Part shown: positions 381 to 10,110 of the stretch, one piece after another
How the letters are laid out: every line of letters begins with the position of its first letter
How positions within the stretch are numbered: position 1 is the first letter of the stretch
Virus record (IMG/VR): IMGVR_UViG_2713896909_000006
DNA: 10,206 nt
Direction: 5' to 3' (one strand)
From: a virus
Taxonomy: Duplodnaviria > Heunggongvirae > Uroviricota > Caudoviricetes
The notes under the pieces: generated by a model
Database searches by the model: none
Told to the model about the DNA's origin: nothing
The model's input: the letters and a program-made list of their open reading frames with translations, nothing else
Position numbers and translations under genes: made by a program

Positions 381-872
381 CTATCTGAGTTGAACATCAA
401 TGGAATAAATATCACCACTCTTTATAAATTTAGAATCTGTCCTTTCATCAAAAGATTCAAATGACTGTACCTTTAAAAACTTTTTCATTTTATTTTCAAA
501 AATACTTTCATTAACACCAGTTAAATACTTGAACGCTCTACCAGCAAGGACCTCATTACTTAAATCCATTGTGTTTTTATTGTCTTTGAAAAACCAAACA
601 ATAACCTTTTGTGGGCATGATGGATTATAAACAGATATATAAAACTGCGGCTCATATTTTTCATCAGCGTCATCACTAAGCATTTCTTCAGAAGATAATT
701 CTCTTCTGAATTCATATTGCCGCTTAGTTATTCCTTCATCCTTTATTATCTCTTGCTTAACTGGTGCAATACCTATAGAAGAGATTAATTCTGACTCATT
801 AAAGCTGAACTTACACTCTTCCGCAGCCAAGTTAAAAGATAAAAGTGCAGATATAAAAACAAAGATACGCAT
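381..872 (-). CDS. AT-rich cargo (moron) gene: secreted/periplasmic protein of unknown function
   Basis: Track ORF 381..890; the likely start is the third ATG (872..870) because GAAGGG sits 6 nt upstream of it and the candidate -10 at 908..903 would leave no leader for ATG 890. N-terminus MRIFVFISALLSFNLAA/EEC has the n-, h- and c-regions of a Sec signal peptide; the mature part is about 146 aa with 2 Cys. Sampled 60-nt blocks are 27-32% GC against about 50% in flanking phage genes. I do not recognise the family. Confidence 0.6.
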   Translation of the reverse strand: MRIFVFISALLSFNLAAEECKFSFNESELISSIGIAPVKQEIIKDEGITKRQYEFRRELSSEEMLSDDADEKYEPQFYISVYNPSCPQKVIVWFFKDNKNTMDLSNEVLAGRAFKYLTGVNESIFENKMKKFLKVQSFESFDERTDSKFIKSGDIYSIDVQLR

Positions 873-902
873 AATCATCCCTTCAATCATTTGTAAGGAA
901 TG

Positions 903-971: not shown

Positions 972-2804
972 CTACCTGAACCGCGTATAGCCAACATCAT
1001 GGCTGACATCAAAACCGCTGGATCGCGTTTCCATAACCCGCATACCCGGAGGCGAATTCACAAAAGATACCTTGATCTCGCCATCAACTTTTGGCACAGA
1101 AGCTTTGTTAATCATGAAGGGATTCGAGCCTGTGGCATCGGAGGCGTTGTTTGACTGAGCCGGATCCACCGCCGGATAAGGTGTGTATCCCCGCGCCGGT
1201 ATTCCCGTCCCATAAGCATCATAAGCACCCGCGCCCCACTGCGCAGAGTTAATGGCATCGACCGTGTCACCGGAACTGTCGGTAAACCACTCAATAATTG
1301 GCTTCAGCTTGTCCCACATATCCTGAAACCACTTAACAACCGGTCCCCAGTTATTGATTACCATCCCCAGCGGCGACCAGGCAAAAACCTTCTTCAGAAG
1401 TTCCCAGCCAGCCTCAAAATAAGGACCAATGGTTTCCCAGAGCTTCTTGAAATAAGGTCCGACAACATCCCAGTTAGTGATAATTAATCCCGCAGCCAGG
1501 GCTATCGCCGTCGCAATCATTCCAATCGGCGTCATCGACATGATCCTGCTGACAATACTGATGGCACCGCCAACGCCCATCAATCCCAGTTTCAGAATCG
1601 CAAGACCGGCAGCAAGCCCGACGACGCCGCGAATAACCCGGGGATTTTCATCCGCAAACTTCGTGAATTTTTCCCCTAACTCCCCCAGCCATTGCGTGAT
1701 ATTTTTGGCGTCACCAGAAAATGCGCCGCCAATAGCCGCAAGGCCGTTAGTTGCGGTCCCCGTCATTGCCTCCCACAGGTTGGACAGCGTACCAAGCTGT
1801 GCCTGAACACGTTTATTCAGGCTGGCCTGTTTATTCATCTTCTGCTGGATCTGATCGTAGCCATCCTTTCCTTTATCGATCAGCGCATTGACCACCTGAA
1901 GGGTTTCGGCATCATCACCAAATATTGCTTTAAGTACACCAGTTCGTTTAACGTCGGTCAGTTTTCGCAGCTTTGCCAGTTGCCTGAACATGTTATCAAG
2001 ACCGCCAAAACTCCCTTTGCCGTCAGTAAAATCGAGCTGTACCCCGAGTTTCTGGCGGGCCATGATTTTATTGACGTCCCTGATTTTCTTAACGCTTAAT
2101 CCGGACTGGATAACTTTTCGCAGGGCGTTACCTGCCGACTCCCCGTTCATCCCCATCTGATCCATCATGACGCTGATGGGGGCAAGGCTCTGTGCAGCCT
2201 GAAGACCGTCCCTGTTCACCATCTTCAGAACAGAGCTGGTTTTAGTGAAGAAGGACAACATGTTGGTATCGTCAACGCCCAGATAAAACGCCTTCTGGAT
2301 AGTGTCGAACAGCCCCATCATGTCTTCTGACGCCGTTCCGGTAGCATCCTGCATCTTTGCGGCAAACTCGGCAGCCGCTTCCGGTGTTTTTTTCAGTTGT
2401 ACCGCAAGATAAGCTGTCGCTTTACCCACACCGCCAAGAATGTTTTCTGCCGGGATCCCCTGACGCACCAGCATCTGCATCATGTTCTGAAAATCAGCCG
2501 TTGTACCGGGTAGCTGGTTACCCAGGCCAATAGCCAGTTTATTGATGTCCTGAAAGCTCTTTCCAACCTCGCCGTTCGCATCCATCATGGCGACTTTCAG
2601 CCCGATGGCGGCGTTTTCCTGATCGGCATAAGATTTCAGGGAAAGCGTCAGACCCGCTGCCAGTCCGCCACCAAGCGCCAGCCCACCCTGTGACGCTTCT
2701 TCCGCCTGGCGTTTAAATCCCCGGATTTTCTTTTGCATTTTCGACAGCGCGGGAGAAAGCCTGTCGACACCGGTGATCAACGCCTTAAGCTCAAATTCAG
2801 CCAT
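972..2804 (-). CDS. Tail tape measure protein
   Basis: 610-aa ORF directly downstream of the chaperone pair, with ATG 2804 and AGGAGA about 9 nt upstream. Gly/Ala-rich N-terminal region, long hydrophobic segment (GVVGLAAGLAILKLGLMGVGG...IALAAGLIITNW) and Trp-rich repeats (GPYFKKLWETIGPYFEAGWELLKKVFAW...WFQDMWDKLKPIIEWF), all typical of tape measure proteins; position matches Mu gp42. Confidence 0.8.
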   Translation of the reverse strand: MAEFELKALITGVDRLSPALSKMQKKIRGFKRQAEEASQGGLALGGGLAAGLTLSLKSYADQENAAIGLKVAMMDANGEVGKSFQDINKLAIGLGNQLPGTTADFQNMMQMLVRQGIPAENILGGVGKATAYLAVQLKKTPEAAAEFAAKMQDATGTASEDMMGLFDTIQKAFYLGVDDTNMLSFFTKTSSVLKMVNRDGLQAAQSLAPISVMMDQMGMNGESAGNALRKVIQSGLSVKKIRDVNKIMARQKLGVQLDFTDGKGSFGGLDNMFRQLAKLRKLTDVKRTGVLKAIFGDDAETLQVVNALIDKGKDGYDQIQQKMNKQASLNKRVQAQLGTLSNLWEAMTGTATNGLAAIGGAFSGDAKNITQWLGELGEKFTKFADENPRVIRGVVGLAAGLAILKLGLMGVGGAISIVSRIMSMTPIGMIATAIALAAGLIITNWDVVGPYFKKLWETIGPYFEAGWELLKKVFAWSPLGMVINNWGPVVKWFQDMWDKLKPIIEWFTDSSGDTVDAINSAQWGAGAYDAYGTGIPARGYTPYPAVDPAQSNNASDATGSNPFMINKASVPKVDGEIKVSFVNSPPGMRVMETRSSGFDVSHDVGYTRFR

Positions 2805-3215
2805 GTGTGCGTTTCTCCTGCTCTATCCTGTTTGCCTGACTGACCAGCAAGGGAATTTCACTGATCGGCATATTCAGCAATTCGAAGGGATTAATGCGCC
2901 AGTAGCTGGCGCAGTCAAAGAAGCGATCAGTGAGGTATTCAGCCGTCAGGCCTGGAGGAAAAAACCAGCCACAAGCCACGCCGCTGCATTCAGGTCTGCC
3001 GGAGACATCTGGTCGACAGAGCTTTGCGGCACTTTCGCCAGCCGCACAATGTATTTCGATACCACATGCGCCAGAAGTCTGACGGACTCATCCTGATTCA
3101 TCTGGTAGGGATACCCCAGCTCGCGGACATCTTTCCCGGTGGGCTCATCAAACTCCAGTACGGAGAGTGTCTCGCCATGAGCGGTAATCGGTTTCTTTAA
3201 CTCAAGCTCTTTCAT
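2797..3215 (-). CDS. Tail assembly chaperone, -1 frameshift fusion (GT-like long product, about 139 aa)
   Basis: A -1 slip at T_TTT_TTC (2964..2958) moves ribosomes from codon 86 of the 89-aa ORF into the overlapping track ORF 2797..2979, adding PPGLTAEYLTDRFFDCASYWRINPFELLNMPISEIPLLVSQANRIEQEKRTHG. That extension ends 8 nt inside the tape-measure start, the usual G/GT arrangement. Confidence 0.55.
2946..3215 (-). CDS. Tail assembly chaperone, short (G-like) product
   Basis: 89-aa ORF between the tube and tape-measure genes; its ATG (3215..3213) overlaps the tube stop as TAATG. Small acidic protein in the position of lambda G / Mu gp41, ending ...VAGFFLQA* just after a slippery heptamer. Confidence 0.7.
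   Translation of the reverse strand: MKELELKKPITAHGETLSVLEFDEPTGKDVRELGYPYQMNQDESVRLLAHVVSKYIVRLAKVPQSSVDQMSPADLNAAAWLVAGFFLQA
2958..2964 (-). other. -1 programmed frameshift slippery heptamer T_TTT_TTC
   Basis: Minus-strand sequence GCT GGT TTT TTC CTC in the zero frame; the heptamer T TTT TTC fits the X_XXY_YYZ rule and lies 4 codons before the zero-frame stop. A CAGGCCTG palindrome follows. Confidence 0.55.
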
Positions 3216-3571
3216 TACTGGTAATCCCCTTCTTCACCGTGAAATTCAATATCGACCGTGCCTTCTTCGGCATTATGGTTCGCTTCGCCGTGCAGCCCGG
3301 CTGACGACAATACATAGACCTGACCGTTCGCCAGCTCGGCAGTGATGGTCATCTCATCAGACGAGGTGATTTTGCTCACCGGAAAATTCTTCGGCACCTT
3401 GAAGGTCCCTTTGACATAAGGCGCACGGTGAGTTTCCTTGCGGTCCACTGAACCGTCCAGGCCGATGATGTCATCATTGACCGTCCTGTTCATGGGCACC
3501 TCAATGCCGCCGGTCAGCGATAGCTGTTGACCGTCAATTTTGAAATAACAGGTTCCCCCGATACGGGCCAT
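3215..3571 (-). CDS. Tail tube protein (Mu gpM-like)
   Basis: 118-aa ORF immediately after the sheath gene (TAATG overlap at 3571) with GAGGAG 8 nt upstream. Size and position match contractile-tail tube proteins; MARIGGTCYFKIDGQQLSLTGGIEVPMNRTVNDD... looks like a Mu-type tube. Confidence 0.75.
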   Translation of the reverse strand: MARIGGTCYFKIDGQQLSLTGGIEVPMNRTVNDDIIGLDGSVDRKETHRAPYVKGTFKVPKNFPVSKITSSDEMTITAELANGQVYVLSSAGLHGEANHNAEEGTVDIEFHGEEGDYQ

Positions 3572-5067
3572 TATGCAGACTCCTCTGAATACTGAAGACG
3601 GAACTGGTTAACCACGGCAAAGACACTCAACTGGTTAACATAGTCAGGCGGGAACAGCGTGTTCAGGCGGTTCGGATCGCTGGCATCACGCTCCACAACC
3701 AGGTACTGCTTAAACAGTTCGTAGTTTTCCACGATCCCCGCACGCTCAAGCTGACGGTAGGTTGCCAGCAGTTCCCCTTTGATTACCGCCGGGGTGACAA
3801 TCGCCTGACCGGGACCAAAGCGGGTACCGTCGCTGGCAAGCTTGTGACGCCCGTACTTACTGGTAATGACGGATTTCAGTTTGCGCAGTACATACGCACT
3901 GGTATGCAGCGTCTCGCTGTCGAGGTAGCTGTTATCCGCAACCCCGTAAGCATTTTTCCTGTACGTGGTGACATCACGCTGAATGCGCAGCACCCCGCTT
4001 TCGACATACGCCGTTGCCACGCCATGAGAGAGCAGGGTCTGCTGCTCGGTCATCGTGAACCGTTTCCCCTTCGGCGCAGGCAGCATACCCACCAGCTCAC
4101 CGGTCTGCGTGGGACGTGCCGGATCGTTGCGGATAAACACCGCTGCGCGGGCGGTACGGCTTGCCGCCAGCTCGTCGGCAGGCGTCTGGGTCTCTTTTTC
4201 GTATCCCGCCAGGGTAATGTGCTGCTGGTTAAACTGGTCACCTGCGGTCACCAGTTCTGACAGCGTGCCGATCTTTGCCGTATACACATGACCATACAGC
4301 TGACGCGCATAGCTCCAGCGACCGCTGGTATCGTTCATCTCGGTCACCAGCGTGTTAACGGAGGCTGTGTCGTTGAACGGCAGGCCGATATAATCAAACG
4401 GCTCATCCGCCATTGCAGCCACCGCGCCGGTGAGAACAGGAGCGCCCGTTCCGGCGGTACCCGTCGCCACGGCAATCTGTACGCCCGCTGGCAGCACTTC
4501 GCCCCCACCAAAGCCGTAGTAATTGAGGCTGACAGGAATTTCATTCCCGCAAAGCCCCTTATGACGCGCGGTCAGTGTGACCACGCCTGCCGAAGATGAG
4601 GCAGTAAACGGCAGGGTCGGAACGGCATTGATGGCATCTTTGATACTGCTGGCAATCGTCGCGACGTTATCGCCGTTGGTCACCGGTGCCTGCACGCGGG
4701 TACGTCCCACATAAACATTCACCGTGCCGGTTTCGGTTGCCGCGCCGGTCACCGTCAGCGTAACTGTTGCCGCCGCGCCCGTGGATTCAGGAACGGCAAT
4801 CACATACAGTTCACCAAACGGGTCGGTCTGGCGATAAGCCTCGACCATACGCGCCAGCTGACTTCCCGCACCACAAATCTGGCGTGCATAGTCTGCCGAT
4901 GGCATCAGCACCAGACTGTTGGCAACAATCTCTGCACCGTTATTGGCATGACCAATCAGCAGCGATGCTCCGCTGTCCTGTGCAGTATTCGCCGCCGAGT
5001 TATCCATTTCCGCATAAAAAATCGGAACCAGCGTATTCGACGGAATGGTGTTAAAGCTTATCGTCAT
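3571..5067 (-). CDS. Contractile tail sheath protein (Mu gpL-like)
   Basis: 498-aa ORF with AAGGTGA 7 nt upstream of ATG 5067, directly preceding the tube gene. Size and order are as in Mu-like myovirus tails. Confidence 0.8.
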   Translation of the reverse strand: MTISFNTIPSNTLVPIFYAEMDNSAANTAQDSGASLLIGHANNGAEIVANSLVLMPSADYARQICGAGSQLARMVEAYRQTDPFGELYVIAVPESTGAAATVTLTVTGAATETGTVNVYVGRTRVQAPVTNGDNVATIASSIKDAINAVPTLPFTASSSAGVVTLTARHKGLCGNEIPVSLNYYGFGGGEVLPAGVQIAVATGTAGTGAPVLTGAVAAMADEPFDYIGLPFNDTASVNTLVTEMNDTSGRWSYARQLYGHVYTAKIGTLSELVTAGDQFNQQHITLAGYEKETQTPADELAASRTARAAVFIRNDPARPTQTGELVGMLPAPKGKRFTMTEQQTLLSHGVATAYVESGVLRIQRDVTTYRKNAYGVADNSYLDSETLHTSAYVLRKLKSVITSKYGRHKLASDGTRFGPGQAIVTPAVIKGELLATYRQLERAGIVENYELFKQYLVVERDASDPNRLNTLFPPDYVNQLSVFAVVNQFRLQYSEESA

Positions 5068-8253: not shown

Positions 8254-8856
8254 TTACGCGTTAAGAAGGGTCAGGACGCGTTCACGCGCCATACGTTGAT
8301 TAATGGCTTTCTGTAGCGCGCCGCTGTTGCGCGCCTCCTGCCATGCTTTCATGGAGCGAACAGCCGAGTCAGCCTCCTGATAGGCAGGATATGTCACAGG
8401 ACTGACATCCAGCAGACGGGAAAAGCGGGTTATCTCGCGAATAACAACCCCGTCCTCATCCTGATACCACTCCTCGCCGTCACGGGCGACACGGAAAGCA
8501 AAAGATGACTGGTTAATATCTCCACGTTGCATCGGGGCCAGCACCAGATCACGAATGGTCTGTGTCTCCGGAGCCTGGATGTCATAGCGCAATCCGCGCT
8601 CATCAACTGAAAGATTCAGCGTGCCTGCTGCACTACGCCCAAGAATAAAATTAGGATCGTGGTTAAACAGTGCGCGTACATCATCACCAAGCACATCGTC
8701 AAAAGCGCCGGGCCGGATGATTTCGCGGAATGAACCGAATATCAGCTCAGAACGACAGTCAAACACCGATCCATAACCGATAATGTGCGCCGGGTTATCG
8801 TCATGCCGCTCAGCACGCACCTCACCGCTGTAACAACGGATTTCACGGTCATTCAT
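8254..8856 (-). CDS. Prohead protease (HK97 gp4 family)
   Basis: Track ORF 8254..8913; the likely start is ATG 8856..8854 (MNDREIRCYSGEV...) with GAGGG 8-9 nt upstream and an 8-nt overlap with the portal stop. Motifs IIGYGSVFD, RPGAFDDVL and LFNHDPNFILGRS match the HK97-family prohead protease. Confidence 0.8.
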   Translation of the reverse strand: MNDREIRCYSGEVRAERHDDNPAHIIGYGSVFDCRSELIFGSFREIIRPGAFDDVLGDDVRALFNHDPNFILGRSAAGTLNLSVDERGLRYDIQAPETQTIRDLVLAPMQRGDINQSSFAFRVARDGEEWYQDEDGVVIREITRFSRLLDVSPVTYPAYQEADSAVRSMKAWQEARNSGALQKAINQRMARERVLTLLNA

Positions 8857-9959
8857 TGGTTTTTCCCTCATCGTTTTTTGGGGGCTTAAAATCTCCTGCC
8901 GGGTTAGCAGCATTCACGCTTACCAGCATCTCGTCCAGCCCTTCAACCGGATTCATATCCTCGAATGCGCGGGCCTCATTACGGCTCATCCATCCATCGG
9001 TGATAGCGAAGTGATAGAATTGCGCGCGCTCCTGCGGAGTTCCGCGTAAAAGCCCCGTCAGATTGAACCTGACGTAATACCCGGCGGCTAACTCAGCGCG
9101 GGTAAACAAGCGACGGTTAAGCTCCTGCTCCCAGTTCGTCACCCACGGCATCATCGATCATCATGTCAATGATCTGAGCGTCAACTGGCGACACAGTCAG
9201 TGCCTTGTAATCCAGATCGGCTGGCAGCAGCATGGTTTTGTTTTCCTGGCGGCGTAACGCCTGCGATGCCTTCTGCCACTGATCTTTAAGCCAGCCCCAG
9301 CTTTCCTTATTGAGTCCGCTTTTAACGGATACTATCCCCGCCGGACGGGCATTACCGCTGAAGAAGCTTTCTGTGTACTTCTGACCGCTCATCCCCATGC
9401 CTATTGTTTCGGCATGTTGCATAATCGGACTCAGCCCCATCTTCTGATTATTACCCAGCGCACGGATGTGGATCATATCGTCCGGACTGATCGCAAACGC
9501 CCCATATTCGTTGTACAAACCGTAGGTATATCGGCCACCAGTATTCATCAGCGTCGTTTCCCACGGCATACAGCAATCCAGGGATATGACTTCACCGCGA
9601 CGATTACGTTTCACCCAGGTATACCCATTCCCCCAGCCAAGGATGTGACGTTGCTTCAGTTCGCGCCATTTGTAGCTGGTTTGCCAGGTATTGGGCTCAT
9701 CATGAACCAGATAAAACGCAGGATGATCGCGTGCGGGTTCAACCTTCCCCTTGTACCTGCGCATAACATGCAACGGCATCTGGGCAAGGCTGGAAGACAG
9801 GACATAGATACAGGAATACACCGCAGCCAGTTTCATCGCAGTCTCAGGACTGACATAAACGTCTGCCCGGAACAGCCCATCAGTATCAACGGCATCCCCG
9901 GTTATCGGGGTGGAAGGATTCTCCAGTGATTTACTTCTGAACAGAGCATCAAGCAGCAC
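8849..9959 (-). pseudogene. Portal protein (HK97 family), reading frame disrupted; track fragments 9117..10007 and 8849..9154
   Basis: The N-terminal part (...SPETAMKLAAVYSCIYVLSSSLAQMPLHVMRR...) and the C-terminal part (PWVTNWEQELNRRLF...GYYVRFNLTGLLRG...) are both portal-like but lie in different frames that overlap at 9120..9157. The junction carries a 7-nt tandem repeat, GATGATC (9162..9156) and GATGATG (9155..9149). The likely start is GTG 9959 with AAGGGGGA upstream; the track's GTG 10007 adds an implausible W-rich N-terminus. Confidence 0.7.
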
Positions 9960-10110
9960 GCGTCCCCCTTCTGGCCATAGCCAGTGCGCCCACCAGCAGT
10001 AAAGCACCGGACAAAATCAGAGCCGGAGCCATACCAAACTGCAGGTAAACCCCGCACGTAAGCAGGCCAAAACCAGCCAGCCCGATAACATCAGCAATTA
10101 GTGATTTCAT
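9949..10110 (-). CDS. Small hydrophobic protein, two predicted transmembrane helices, unknown function
   Basis: 53-codon ORF not in the track: [53 protein letters not shown]. Its ATG (10110..10108) overlaps the stop of the upstream ORF (ATGA), and its TGA (9951..9949) overlaps the proposed portal start. No other frame is open across 10017..10107. Confidence 0.4.

What the first reader, a model, noticed from the sequence alone, without database searches (positions are those of the whole stretch)
2797..3215. Conserved -1 programmed frameshift in the tail chaperone at T_TTT_TTC (2964..2958)
Seen: the 89-aa chaperone ORF has a textbook X_XXY_YYZ heptamer 4 codons before its stop, and the -1 frame from that point stays open for 53 codons and ends inside the tape-measure start. 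Established: dsDNA tailed phages make G and GT-type chaperones by -1 frameshifting just upstream of tape measure, including Mu-like tails. Inference: two products are made here, about 89 aa and about 139 aa, at a fixed ratio.
Basis: partly seen in the sequence, partly recalled or inferred. Interest (0 to 1): 0.4.

Follow-up and report, generated by a model that had tools for sequence, protein, structure and literature searches.

The report
Tail chaperone -1 frameshift, P2 E/E+E' type
This is an ordinary but unannotated case of the programmed -1 ribosomal frameshift that tailed phages use to make a short and a long tail-assembly chaperone from one gene, here in an SfV-like prophage of E. coli/Shigella.

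Summary
On the minus strand an 89-codon ORF (3215..2946) carries T_TTT_TTC (2964..2958) in X_XXY_YYZ phase. The -1 frame then stays open for 53 codons to a TGA (2799..2797) that overlaps the tape-measure start (ATG 2804).

The window is about 98% identical to phages SfV, SfI and SfII. The ORF is a Pfam PF10109 tail assembly chaperone, the family of P2 gpE and Mu gp41.

Of 154 distinct related loci (down to about 40% identity), 153 could be evaluated. 150 of those keep T_TTT_TTY in phase with a -1 ORF of about 49-59 codons (one runs on into foreign sequence); among 64 representatives that ORF nearly always ends at the tape-measure start. The other three have G_TTT_TTY.

The extension is under purifying selection only in the -1 frame, and 34 of 64 representative loci have no start codon for it.

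The layout matches P2 E/E+E', which is annotated as a frameshift: 91/142 aa, TTTTTTG, and an 8-nt overlap with gene T.

Mu itself uses -2. No stimulatory element lies at canonical spacing. Efficiency and ratio are untested.

No public record I inspected annotates the frameshift. This is a new member of a known kind and of low interest.

A hairpin 44 nt downstream, conserved within this clade, remains unexplained. This copy's portal gene carries a 116-nt deletion.

The parts
2946..3215 (-). Tail assembly chaperone ORF, zero frame, 89 aa (gpE / gpG analogue)
   Evidence: Pfam PF10109 Phage_TAC_7, E=1.9e-16, 60.3 bits against a cutoff of 25. phrog_166 'tail protein', E=7e-24. PGAP names it 'phage tail assembly protein'.
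2958..2964 (-). Slippery heptamer T_TTT_TTC in X_XXY_YYZ phase (Gly84 third base, Phe85, Phe86)
   Evidence: Conserved as T_TTT_TTC (147) or T_TTT_TTT (3) among 153 evaluable distinct loci; the other 3 have G_TTT_TTY. The preceding codon always ends in T even when the amino acid changes (GGT 59, AGT 2, CGT 2, AAT 1).
2797..2958 (-). -1 frame extension, 53 codons plus TGA (E'/T-like domain: PPGLTAEY...FDCASYWRINP...QANRIEQEKRTHG)
   Evidence: pN/pS is 0.30 in the -1 phase against 1.17 and 1.14 in the other two phases. The same holds segment by segment, starting immediately after the zero-frame stop. phrog_32181, E=4e-40. Invariant residues A103, W106, P110, A128, R130, I131.
972..2804 (-). Tape measure protein gene, 610 aa; its start overlaps the end of the -1 ORF by 8 nt (ATGGCTGA)
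   Evidence: PF10145, E=1e-26. phrog_28 and phrog_17727, tape measure.
3215..3571 (-). Tail tube protein gene, 118 aa; its TAA overlaps the chaperone ATG (TAATG)
   Evidence: PF10618, E=2e-31. phrog_185.
3571..5067 (-). Tail sheath protein gene, 498 aa
   Evidence: PF04984, PF17482 and PF17481.
2895..2913 (-). 8-bp hairpin UGCGCCAG-CUA-CUGGCGCA, 44 nt 3' of the heptamer, within codons C-A-S-Y-W-R of the extension; role unknown
   Evidence: the 88-nt segment folds at z=-1.9; 11 of 200 shuffles fold as well. Conserved across the SfV-like clade. Stem third-codon positions TGC, GCC and CGC are invariant (one CGA exception) in roughly 30 distinct sequences, while the loop third position and flanking codons vary. 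The hairpin is absent in the ST64B, phiP27, BgVeeders33 and P2 lineages.

Best explanation
Ribosomes translating the chaperone mRNA mostly terminate at TGA 2948..2946 and release the 89-aa chaperone.

A minority slip back one nucleotide while tRNA-Phe occupies UUU (P site) and UUC (A site) of U_UUU_UUC. They re-pair on UUU and UUU, continue in the -1 frame for 53 codons, and release a 139-aa fusion. That fusion terminates inside the tape-measure start.

By analogy with lambda G/GT and P2 E/E+E', the shared N-terminal domain coats the tape measure protein. The -1-encoded C-terminal domain of the rare long form recruits the tail tube protein, which couples tube polymerisation to the tape measure. 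Neither product ends up in the virion.

Shown here: the sequence anatomy, family membership of the N-domain, conservation of the site and its phase, -1-frame coding selection, and the usual lack of an independent start codon.

Inferred: that slippage is ribosomal, its efficiency and product ratio, and the roles of the two domains.
For: Anatomy.

Family and gene order (sheath, tube, chaperone, tape measure).

The heptamer and a -1 ORF are present in every one of 20 genome loci down to 40% identity, including the betaproteobacterium Derxia. They are also present in phages AH07, F1055/ST64B, phiP27 and BgVeeders33.

In a wider set of 154 distinct loci, 150 have T_TTT_TTY plus a -1 ORF of 49 codons or more, 3 have G_TTT_TTY, and 1 is cut by a contig end.

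Among 64 representative loci:
- The extension is 49-59 codons in 63 of them.
- The -1 stop lies within -23..+15 nt of the tape-measure start, most often with an 8-nt overlap (36 of 64).
- 34 have no ATG, GTG or TTG that could start the -1 ORF; one search found the same in 14 of 22 loci and no Shine-Dalgarno where a candidate exists.

Purifying selection acts only in the -1 phase downstream and only in the zero phase upstream.

No locus has the two frames fused at the DNA level; the T-run is 6 in 147 loci and 7 in 3.

A profile of the fused proteins aligns end to end with P2 E+E', with GFF on GFF (hhalign E=9.8e-5). P2 is annotated with a -1 frameshift, E of 91 aa, E+E' of 142 aa, both products 'essential tail protein', and an 8-nt overlap with T.

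U_UU.U_UU.C is a measured -1 shift-prone motif in E. coli: 0.12% bare, 0.89% with the IS911 stimulator, 7.6% with the IS3 pseudoknot (PMC4066793 supplement; main text).

The general G/GT mechanism and its conservation are described in PMC5009743 and PMC3091744.
Against: - There is no experimental datum for this element or for SfV in the papers I could read.
- No stimulator lies at canonical spacing. The only structure 5 nt downstream is a 4-bp hairpin that is not conserved, and no Shine-Dalgarno-like sequence is conserved upstream.
- The bare motif gives only about 0.1% frameshifting in reporters, so the real efficiency is unknown.
- The -1-encoded domain does not match Pfam PF06528, the P2 E' domain. 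Its profile match to P2 E' alone is weak (E=0.006, probability 6.5%).
- Three near-identical prophage copies carry G_TTT_TTY.
- No public record I inspected annotates the frameshift.
Confidence: 0.9

Rival explanations
1. The same 139-aa product arises by transcriptional slippage. RNA polymerase adds one extra U while copying the T6 run, and ordinary translation of that minority mRNA gives ...GFFPPGL...
For: The site is a homopolymer run that is kept at 6-7 T in all 150 loci carrying the heptamer. Variant L052 keeps a T6 run although it is displaced by one base (G_TTT_TTT). The bare ribosomal motif is weak in reporters at 0.12%. The protein product would be identical, so mass spectrometry cannot separate the two routes.
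Against: From my own knowledge, not tested here: known productive bacterial slippage sites use longer runs, typically 8-9 or more A or T. The run sits in exact X_XXY_YYZ phase in 150 of 153 loci, and the base before TTT is T whatever the amino acid (GGT, AGT, CGT, AAT). That matters for tRNA re-pairing but not for the polymerase. The literature treats the homologous P2 site and the lambda site as ribosomal.
Confidence: 0.05
2. The -1 ORF is an independent small gene. It is the 60-aa ORF 2979..2797 starting at GTG 2979, which record ON470584 annotates as a hypothetical protein.
For: The window has an in-frame GTG 21 nt upstream of the slip point. One phage record calls it a separate CDS. PHROGs holds it as family phrog_32181.
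Against: No Shine-Dalgarno precedes that GTG. Fourteen of 22 loci and 34 of 64 loci have no start codon at all in the open part of the -1 frame. Yet the peptide is conserved and under purifying selection from the first codons after the slip site. The heptamer would have no reason to be conserved at synonymous positions.
Confidence: 0.03
3. The arrangement is a chance heptamer plus a chance open frame in an intergenic spacer, and only the 89-aa protein is made.
For: TTTTTTC is not enriched in the window. Most annotations leave 2945..2805 as a non-coding gap.
Against: The joint chance is on the order of 0.1% in this window. The arrangement recurs in lineages down to 40% identity, with -1-frame purifying selection.
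Confidence: 0.01

Closest known systems
Phage P2 gpE / gpE+E' (-1 frameshift at T_TTT_TTG; Christie et al. 2002 and Xu et al. 2004, as cited in PMC3091744)
   Same: - Same Pfam family for the N-domain, PF10109.
- Same position between tube and tape measure.
- A U6N heptamer on the same Gly-Phe-Phe residues, aligned GFF on GFF.
- Nearly the same sizes: 89/139 aa here against 91/142 aa in P2.
- The same 8-nt overlap of the long product's stop with the tape-measure start.
- No obvious stimulatory structure (for P2; here).
   Different: - The last base is C rather than G.
- The zero-frame stop follows 3 codons after the site here and 6 in P2.
- The -1-encoded domain is not recognised by Pfam PF06528, the P2 E' domain, and matches P2 E' only weakly on its own.
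- The surrounding tail module (sheath, tube, DNA circulation gene) is Mu-like, not P2-like.
Phage lambda gpG / gpGT (-1 frameshift at G_GGA_AAG)
   Same: Same logic: a short chaperone and a rare frameshift-extended form are encoded just upstream of the tape measure. The ratio is critical, and neither product is in the virion (PMC5009743).
   Different: I detected no sequence similarity to lambda; the only Pfam hit is PF10109. The heptamer is different. Lambda is a siphovirus with a non-contractile tail.
Phage Mu gp41 and its frameshift extension (-2 shift)
   Same: Same Pfam family name ('E, or 41 or 14'). Same gene order: L sheath, M tube, gp41, tape measure. The tail module here is annotated as Mu-like.
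   Different: The literature reports a -2 shift for Mu. In Mu the frame that stays open up to the tape measure is the +1/-2 frame. In the window that frame closes after 6 codons and the -1 frame is the open one. Mu gp41 is 144 aa, against 89 aa here.

Membership tests
PF10109 Phage_TAC_7 tail assembly chaperones (P2 gpE, Mu gp41) | Sequence match to the family profile above the curated threshold | tested here: met
   60.3 bits against a cutoff of 25, E=1.9e-16, covering residues 4-86 and profile positions 2-78 of 79.
Frameshifted tail chaperone pair (G/GT, E/E+E' type; Xu et al. 2004) | Gene lies between the major tail/tube gene and the tape measure gene | tested here: met
   Tube 3571..3215, chaperone 3215..2946, tape measure 2804..972. 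Same order in SfV, SfI and E. coli records.
Frameshifted tail chaperone pair (G/GT, E/E+E' type; Xu et al. 2004) | [quoted passage not shown] | tested here: met
   T_TTT_TTC at 2964..2958. Present in 150 of 153 evaluable distinct loci as T_TTT_TTY.
Frameshifted tail chaperone pair (G/GT, E/E+E' type; Xu et al. 2004) | Overlapping shifted-frame ORF that codes for protein, lacks its own start, and ends at the tape measure gene | tested here: met
   53 codons. pN/pS 0.30 in the -1 phase only. No start codon in 34 of 64 loci. The stop overlaps the tape-measure start, with an 8-nt overlap in 36 of 64 loci.
Frameshifted tail chaperone pair (G/GT, E/E+E' type; Xu et al. 2004) | Both products are made, at a low fixed ratio, and both are required for tail assembly | not testable with these tools
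   Needs a reporter assay, western blot or mass spectrometry, and genetics. Only general reporter values for the motif are available.
PF06528 Phage_P2_GpE (the E' domain of P2 E+E') | The -1-encoded domain matches the family profile | tested here: not met
   P2 E' scores 78.7 bits. The window's extension and two distant homologues give no hit even at E<=10. The profile match to P2 E' alone gives E=0.006 and probability 6.5%. The full-length fused profile against P2 E+E' gives E=9.8e-5 and probability 58%. Homology of this domain is therefore suggested but not established.
Mu-type -2 frameshift | The extension is encoded in the +1/-2 frame | tested here: not met
   In the window the -2 frame stops after 6 codons (TGA 2941..2939). 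In Mu the +1 frame is the open one.
Canonical stimulated -1 PRF signal (dnaX / IS3 type) | Stem-loop or pseudoknot 5-9 nt downstream, or a Shine-Dalgarno-like sequence 6-17 nt upstream | tested here: not met
   Only a non-conserved 4-bp hairpin lies 5 nt downstream. The conserved 8-bp hairpin starts 44 nt downstream. No Shine-Dalgarno-like sequence is conserved upstream.

The most novel reading that the evidence does not exclude
The clade-specific 8-bp hairpin at 2913..2895, 44 nt downstream of the heptamer, shows suppressed synonymous variation in its stem. It could be a functional RNA element acting at non-canonical distance. One possibility is that it tunes frameshift efficiency, for example by slowing a leading ribosome or by long-range pairing. 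Another is that it sets tape-measure translation or mRNA stability. If the first is true, it would help explain how P2-type U6N sites without a nearby structure reach useful efficiencies, given that the bare motif gives about 0.1% in reporters.
Probability: 0.1. Interest if true: 0.45.

Novelty: new member of a known kind. Interest (0 to 1): 0.15.

Why it matters
The main value is for annotation. This prophage family is present in about 940 of 5426 complete E. coli genomes and in the Shigella serotype-converting phages. None of the 11 phage and RefSeq records I inspected annotates the 139-aa product. They either leave a roughly 140-nt 'intergenic gap' or call the -1 ORF a separate hypothetical protein. 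PHROGs holds the -1 ORF as an 'unknown function' family (phrog_32181), and Pfam has no model for this E'-like domain.

Recognising the frameshift assigns a function to that sequence. It also adds a well-sampled clade, with natural G_TTT_TTY variants, for studying how U6N sites without a nearby structure reach useful frameshift efficiencies.

Biologically it is the expected, textbook mechanism.

Tried and rejected
- Primary papers were not held: Xu et al. 2004, the SfV genome paper PMC134923 and Christie et al. 2002 PMC135442. I therefore could not check whether SfV was already listed as a frameshift case. Statements about them come from citing papers.
- NCBIfam has no model for the short, fused or extension proteins.
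- The protein database holds 'fused' proteins of 137-139 aa (P0001-P0003). Their sequences show scattered indels, so they are assembly errors and not evidence for a fusion.
A single-sequence AlphaFold model had pLDDT 46.5 and was not used for fold search.
- A profile search of solved structures gave nothing meaningful.
- The first viral-contig scan returned only copies that were 100% identical over the 89-aa chaperone protein. Two more scans with divergent queries were needed.
- I looked for a stimulatory structure in 2900..2957 and for an upstream Shine-Dalgarno-like sequence. Nothing conserved lies at canonical spacing.
- The 221-nt region around the site does not fold better than shuffles (z=-0.8).
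- Pairwise BLASTP against P2 E+E' was not significant (E=0.37). Only the profile comparison was.
Full report
**1. The observation**

On the minus strand, ATG 3215 opens an 89-codon ORF that ends at TGA 2948..2946. Its last codons are GCT GGT TTT TTC CTC CAG GCC TGA. T_TTT_TTC therefore sits at 2964..2958 in exact X_XXY_YYZ phase, with three sense codons before the stop.

Re-reading C2958 opens the -1 frame, which translates to PPGLTAEYLTDRFFDCASYWRINPFELLNMPISEIPLLVSQANRIEQEKRTHG. This frame runs 53 codons to TGA 2799..2797. That stop lies inside ATGGCTGA, where ATG 2804 starts the 610-aa tape measure ORF. The fusion product is 139 aa. The -2/+1 frame closes after 6 codons.

Background in this window:
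- Eight in-phase heptamers occur in 3170 gene codons.
- Only 4.3% of codon positions have a -1 frame open for 53 codons or more.
- This is the only heptamer followed by a long open -1 frame.

**2. What the locus is**

The region is 98-99% identical to the Shigella/E. coli temperate myophages SfV, SfI, SfII, SKA5 and vB_EcoM-689R6. It occurs in about 940 of 5426 complete E. coli genomes.

The gene order is as follows:

| Gene | Coordinates (minus strand) | Evidence |
|---|---|---|
| Sheath | 5067..3571 | PF04984, PF17482, PF17481 |
| Tube | 3571..3215 | PF10618 |
| 89-aa ORF | 3215..2946 | PF10109 |
| Tape measure | 2804..972 | PF10145 |

The 89-aa protein matches Pfam PF10109, 'Phage tail assembly chaperone proteins, E, or 41 or 14', at E=1.9e-16.

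None of the 11 records I inspected annotates a frameshift: SfI, 689R6, SfV, a RefSeq E. coli chromosome, AH07, F1055, phiP27, ST64B, BgVeeders33, and by product names SfII and SKA5. They leave 2945..2805 unannotated. Only ON470584 annotates the -1 ORF, as a separate 60-aa hypothetical protein. PHROGs files the -1 peptide as phrog_32181, 'unknown function'. NCBIfam has no model.

**3. Comparative test**

Twenty genome loci at 100% to 40% identity, from Enterobacterales to the betaproteobacterium Derxia, all keep T_TTT_TTC or T_TTT_TTT in phase. All have a 50-59-codon -1 ORF that ends at the tape-measure start. The same holds in phages AH07, F1055/ST64B, phiP27 and BgVeeders33.

After three scans of IMG/VR, 154 distinct loci were available:

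| Category | Loci |
|---|---|
| T_TTT_TTC with a -1 ORF of 49 codons or more | 147 |
| T_TTT_TTT with a -1 ORF of 49 codons or more | 3 |
| G_TTT_TTY (near-identical E. coli prophage copies) | 3 |
| Truncated by a contig end | 1 |

Over 64 loci with distinct extension peptides:
- The codon before TTT TTY ends in T whatever it encodes (GGT 59, AGT 2, CGT 2, AAT 1).
- The extension is 49-59 codons in 63 of them.
- The tape-measure start lies within -23..+15 nt of the -1 stop. An 8-nt overlap occurs in 36.
- 34 have no ATG, GTG or TTG that could initiate the -1 ORF. One search found the same in 14 of 22 loci, and no Shine-Dalgarno where a candidate exists.

No locus has the two frames fused in the DNA, and the T-run is 6 (147 loci) or 7 (3 loci).

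Substitution patterns:
- Upstream of the site, pN/pS is lowest in the zero frame: 0.18 against 1.6 and 2.5 in the other two phases.
- Downstream, it is lowest in the -1 frame: 0.30 against 1.17 and 1.14.
- This -1 signal already holds for codons 5-14, right after the zero-frame stop.

The fused proteins align with invariant F85 and F86 at the site, and with A103, W106, P110, A128, R130 and I131 in the extension. Together these results show that 2958..2797 encodes protein in the -1 frame. The only conserved way into that frame is the heptamer.

**4. Relation to known systems**

P2 is annotated with E (91 aa) and E+E' (142 aa, 'shares amino terminus with gpE; -1 frameshift; essential tail protein'). 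Its slip site is T_TTT_TTG, and its long product overlaps gene T by 8 nt. That matches the layout here.

A profile of the fused SfV-like proteins aligns over 122 columns with P2 E+E', with GFF on GFF (hhalign E=9.8e-5, probability 58%). Pairwise BLASTP is not significant.

The extension alone does not match Pfam PF06528, the P2 E' domain. It aligns only weakly with P2 E' (E=0.006, probability 6.5%). The pattern D-x-A-x-x-[FW]-[WH]-x-x-P-x-E-L...A-x-R is shared. Homology of the C-domain is therefore plausible but not established.

Mu, whose tail module this prophage otherwise resembles, uses a -2 shift according to the literature (PMC2628397; PMC5009743). In the Mu sequence the frame open up to the tape measure is indeed +1/-2.

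The lambda G/GT mechanism supplies the functional model: G binds the tape measure, and the T domain recruits the major tail protein. The ratio in lambda is about 30:1 and is reported as 2-3-fold higher in P2-like phages.

**5. Mechanism and its weak points**

U_UU.U_UU.C is a measured shift-prone motif in E. coli. It gives 0.121% without a stimulator, 0.89% with the IS911 stimulator and 7.6% with the IS3 pseudoknot. P2's U6G gives 0.118%, 0.25% and 0.77% (PMC4066793 supplement; main text).

I found no stimulator at canonical distance. The 4-bp hairpin 5 nt downstream is not conserved. No upstream Shine-Dalgarno-like sequence is conserved. The wider region does not fold better than shuffles. 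This matches reports for P2 and its relatives. Efficiency and ratio therefore remain inferences.

Transcriptional slippage on the T6 run would give the identical protein and cannot be excluded by sequence. The strict phase and the conserved T before TTT argue for tRNA re-pairing, so I give this rival 0.05. I give independent initiation 0.03 and chance 0.01.

**6. The unexplained hairpin**

An 8-bp hairpin, UGCGCCAG-CUA-CUGGCGCA (2913..2895), lies 44 nt downstream of the heptamer in the codons for C-A-S-Y-W-R. It is kept throughout the SfV-like clade. Stem third positions (TGC, GCC, CGC) are invariant apart from one CGA in roughly 30 distinct sequences. The loop third position (AGC, AGT, AGA) and flanking codons vary.

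The hairpin is absent from the ST64B, phiP27, BgVeeders33 and P2 lineages. I saw no compensatory changes, so the evidence is conservation only. It is too far from the site to be a classical stimulator.

**7. Verdict**

This is the standard tail-chaperone frameshift of the P2 E/E+E' design, sitting in a Mu-like tail module. It is well conserved and was not annotated in any public record I inspected.

It is a new member of a known kind. It would be 'already known' if Xu et al. 2004, which I could not read, already lists SfV. Interest is low; the value lies in annotation and in a possible test bed for U6N sites that lack a nearby structure.

Noticed in passing
window ~9157 (minus strand); ORFs 9117..10007 and 8849..9154: The portal gene is broken. 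Relative to SfV the window lacks 116 nt net (SfV locus L230 1150..1266), which splits the portal into a 296-aa ORF and a 101-aa ORF. The best-matching complete E. coli genomes all carry the missing segment. This copy is therefore probably a defective prophage, or the assembly has an error. Induction of this strain would not be a good test of the frameshift.
   Followed up: yes
window 381..890 (minus strand): A 169-aa ORF lies between the tape measure gene and the DNA-circulation gene. It is absent from SfV, SfI and SfII but present in phage SKA5. It has no Pfam hit and matches only phrog_8976, 'unknown function'. It looks like a moron-type insertion inside the tail operon.
   Followed up: partly
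window 2895..2913 (minus strand): A conserved 8-bp hairpin lies 44 nt 3' of the heptamer. Its stem positions show suppressed synonymous variation within the SfV-like clade, and it is lost in more distant lineages. Its function is unknown.
   Followed up: partly
L052, L083, L089 (IMG/VR prophage copies), position ~951 of each locus: These are natural variants of the slip site in otherwise near-identical prophages. GGT has become GGG, giving G_TTT_TTC (L083, L089) or G_TTT_TTT (L052). The U_UUY A-site tetramer is kept but perfect P-site re-pairing is lost. They would make useful natural mutants for measuring efficiency.
   Followed up: partly
L050 (IMG/VR), downstream of the slip site: The -1 frame runs on for at least 200 codons into unrelated sequence instead of ending at a tape-measure start. 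This indicates a rearranged prophage.
   Followed up: no
proteins P0001-P0006 from the protein database: Apparent 'fused' or elongated chaperone proteins (107-139 aa) are products of indel-ridden assemblies rather than real fusions. They illustrate how homopolymer errors can mimic frameshift products.
   Followed up: yes
window 8867..8888 (minus strand), 3' end of the portal fragment ORF: Three in-phase slippery-type heptamers (CCCAAAA, AAAAAAC, GGGAAAA) cluster in the last 8 codons. The -1 frame there closes after 1-2 codons, so no extended product is possible.
   Followed up: no
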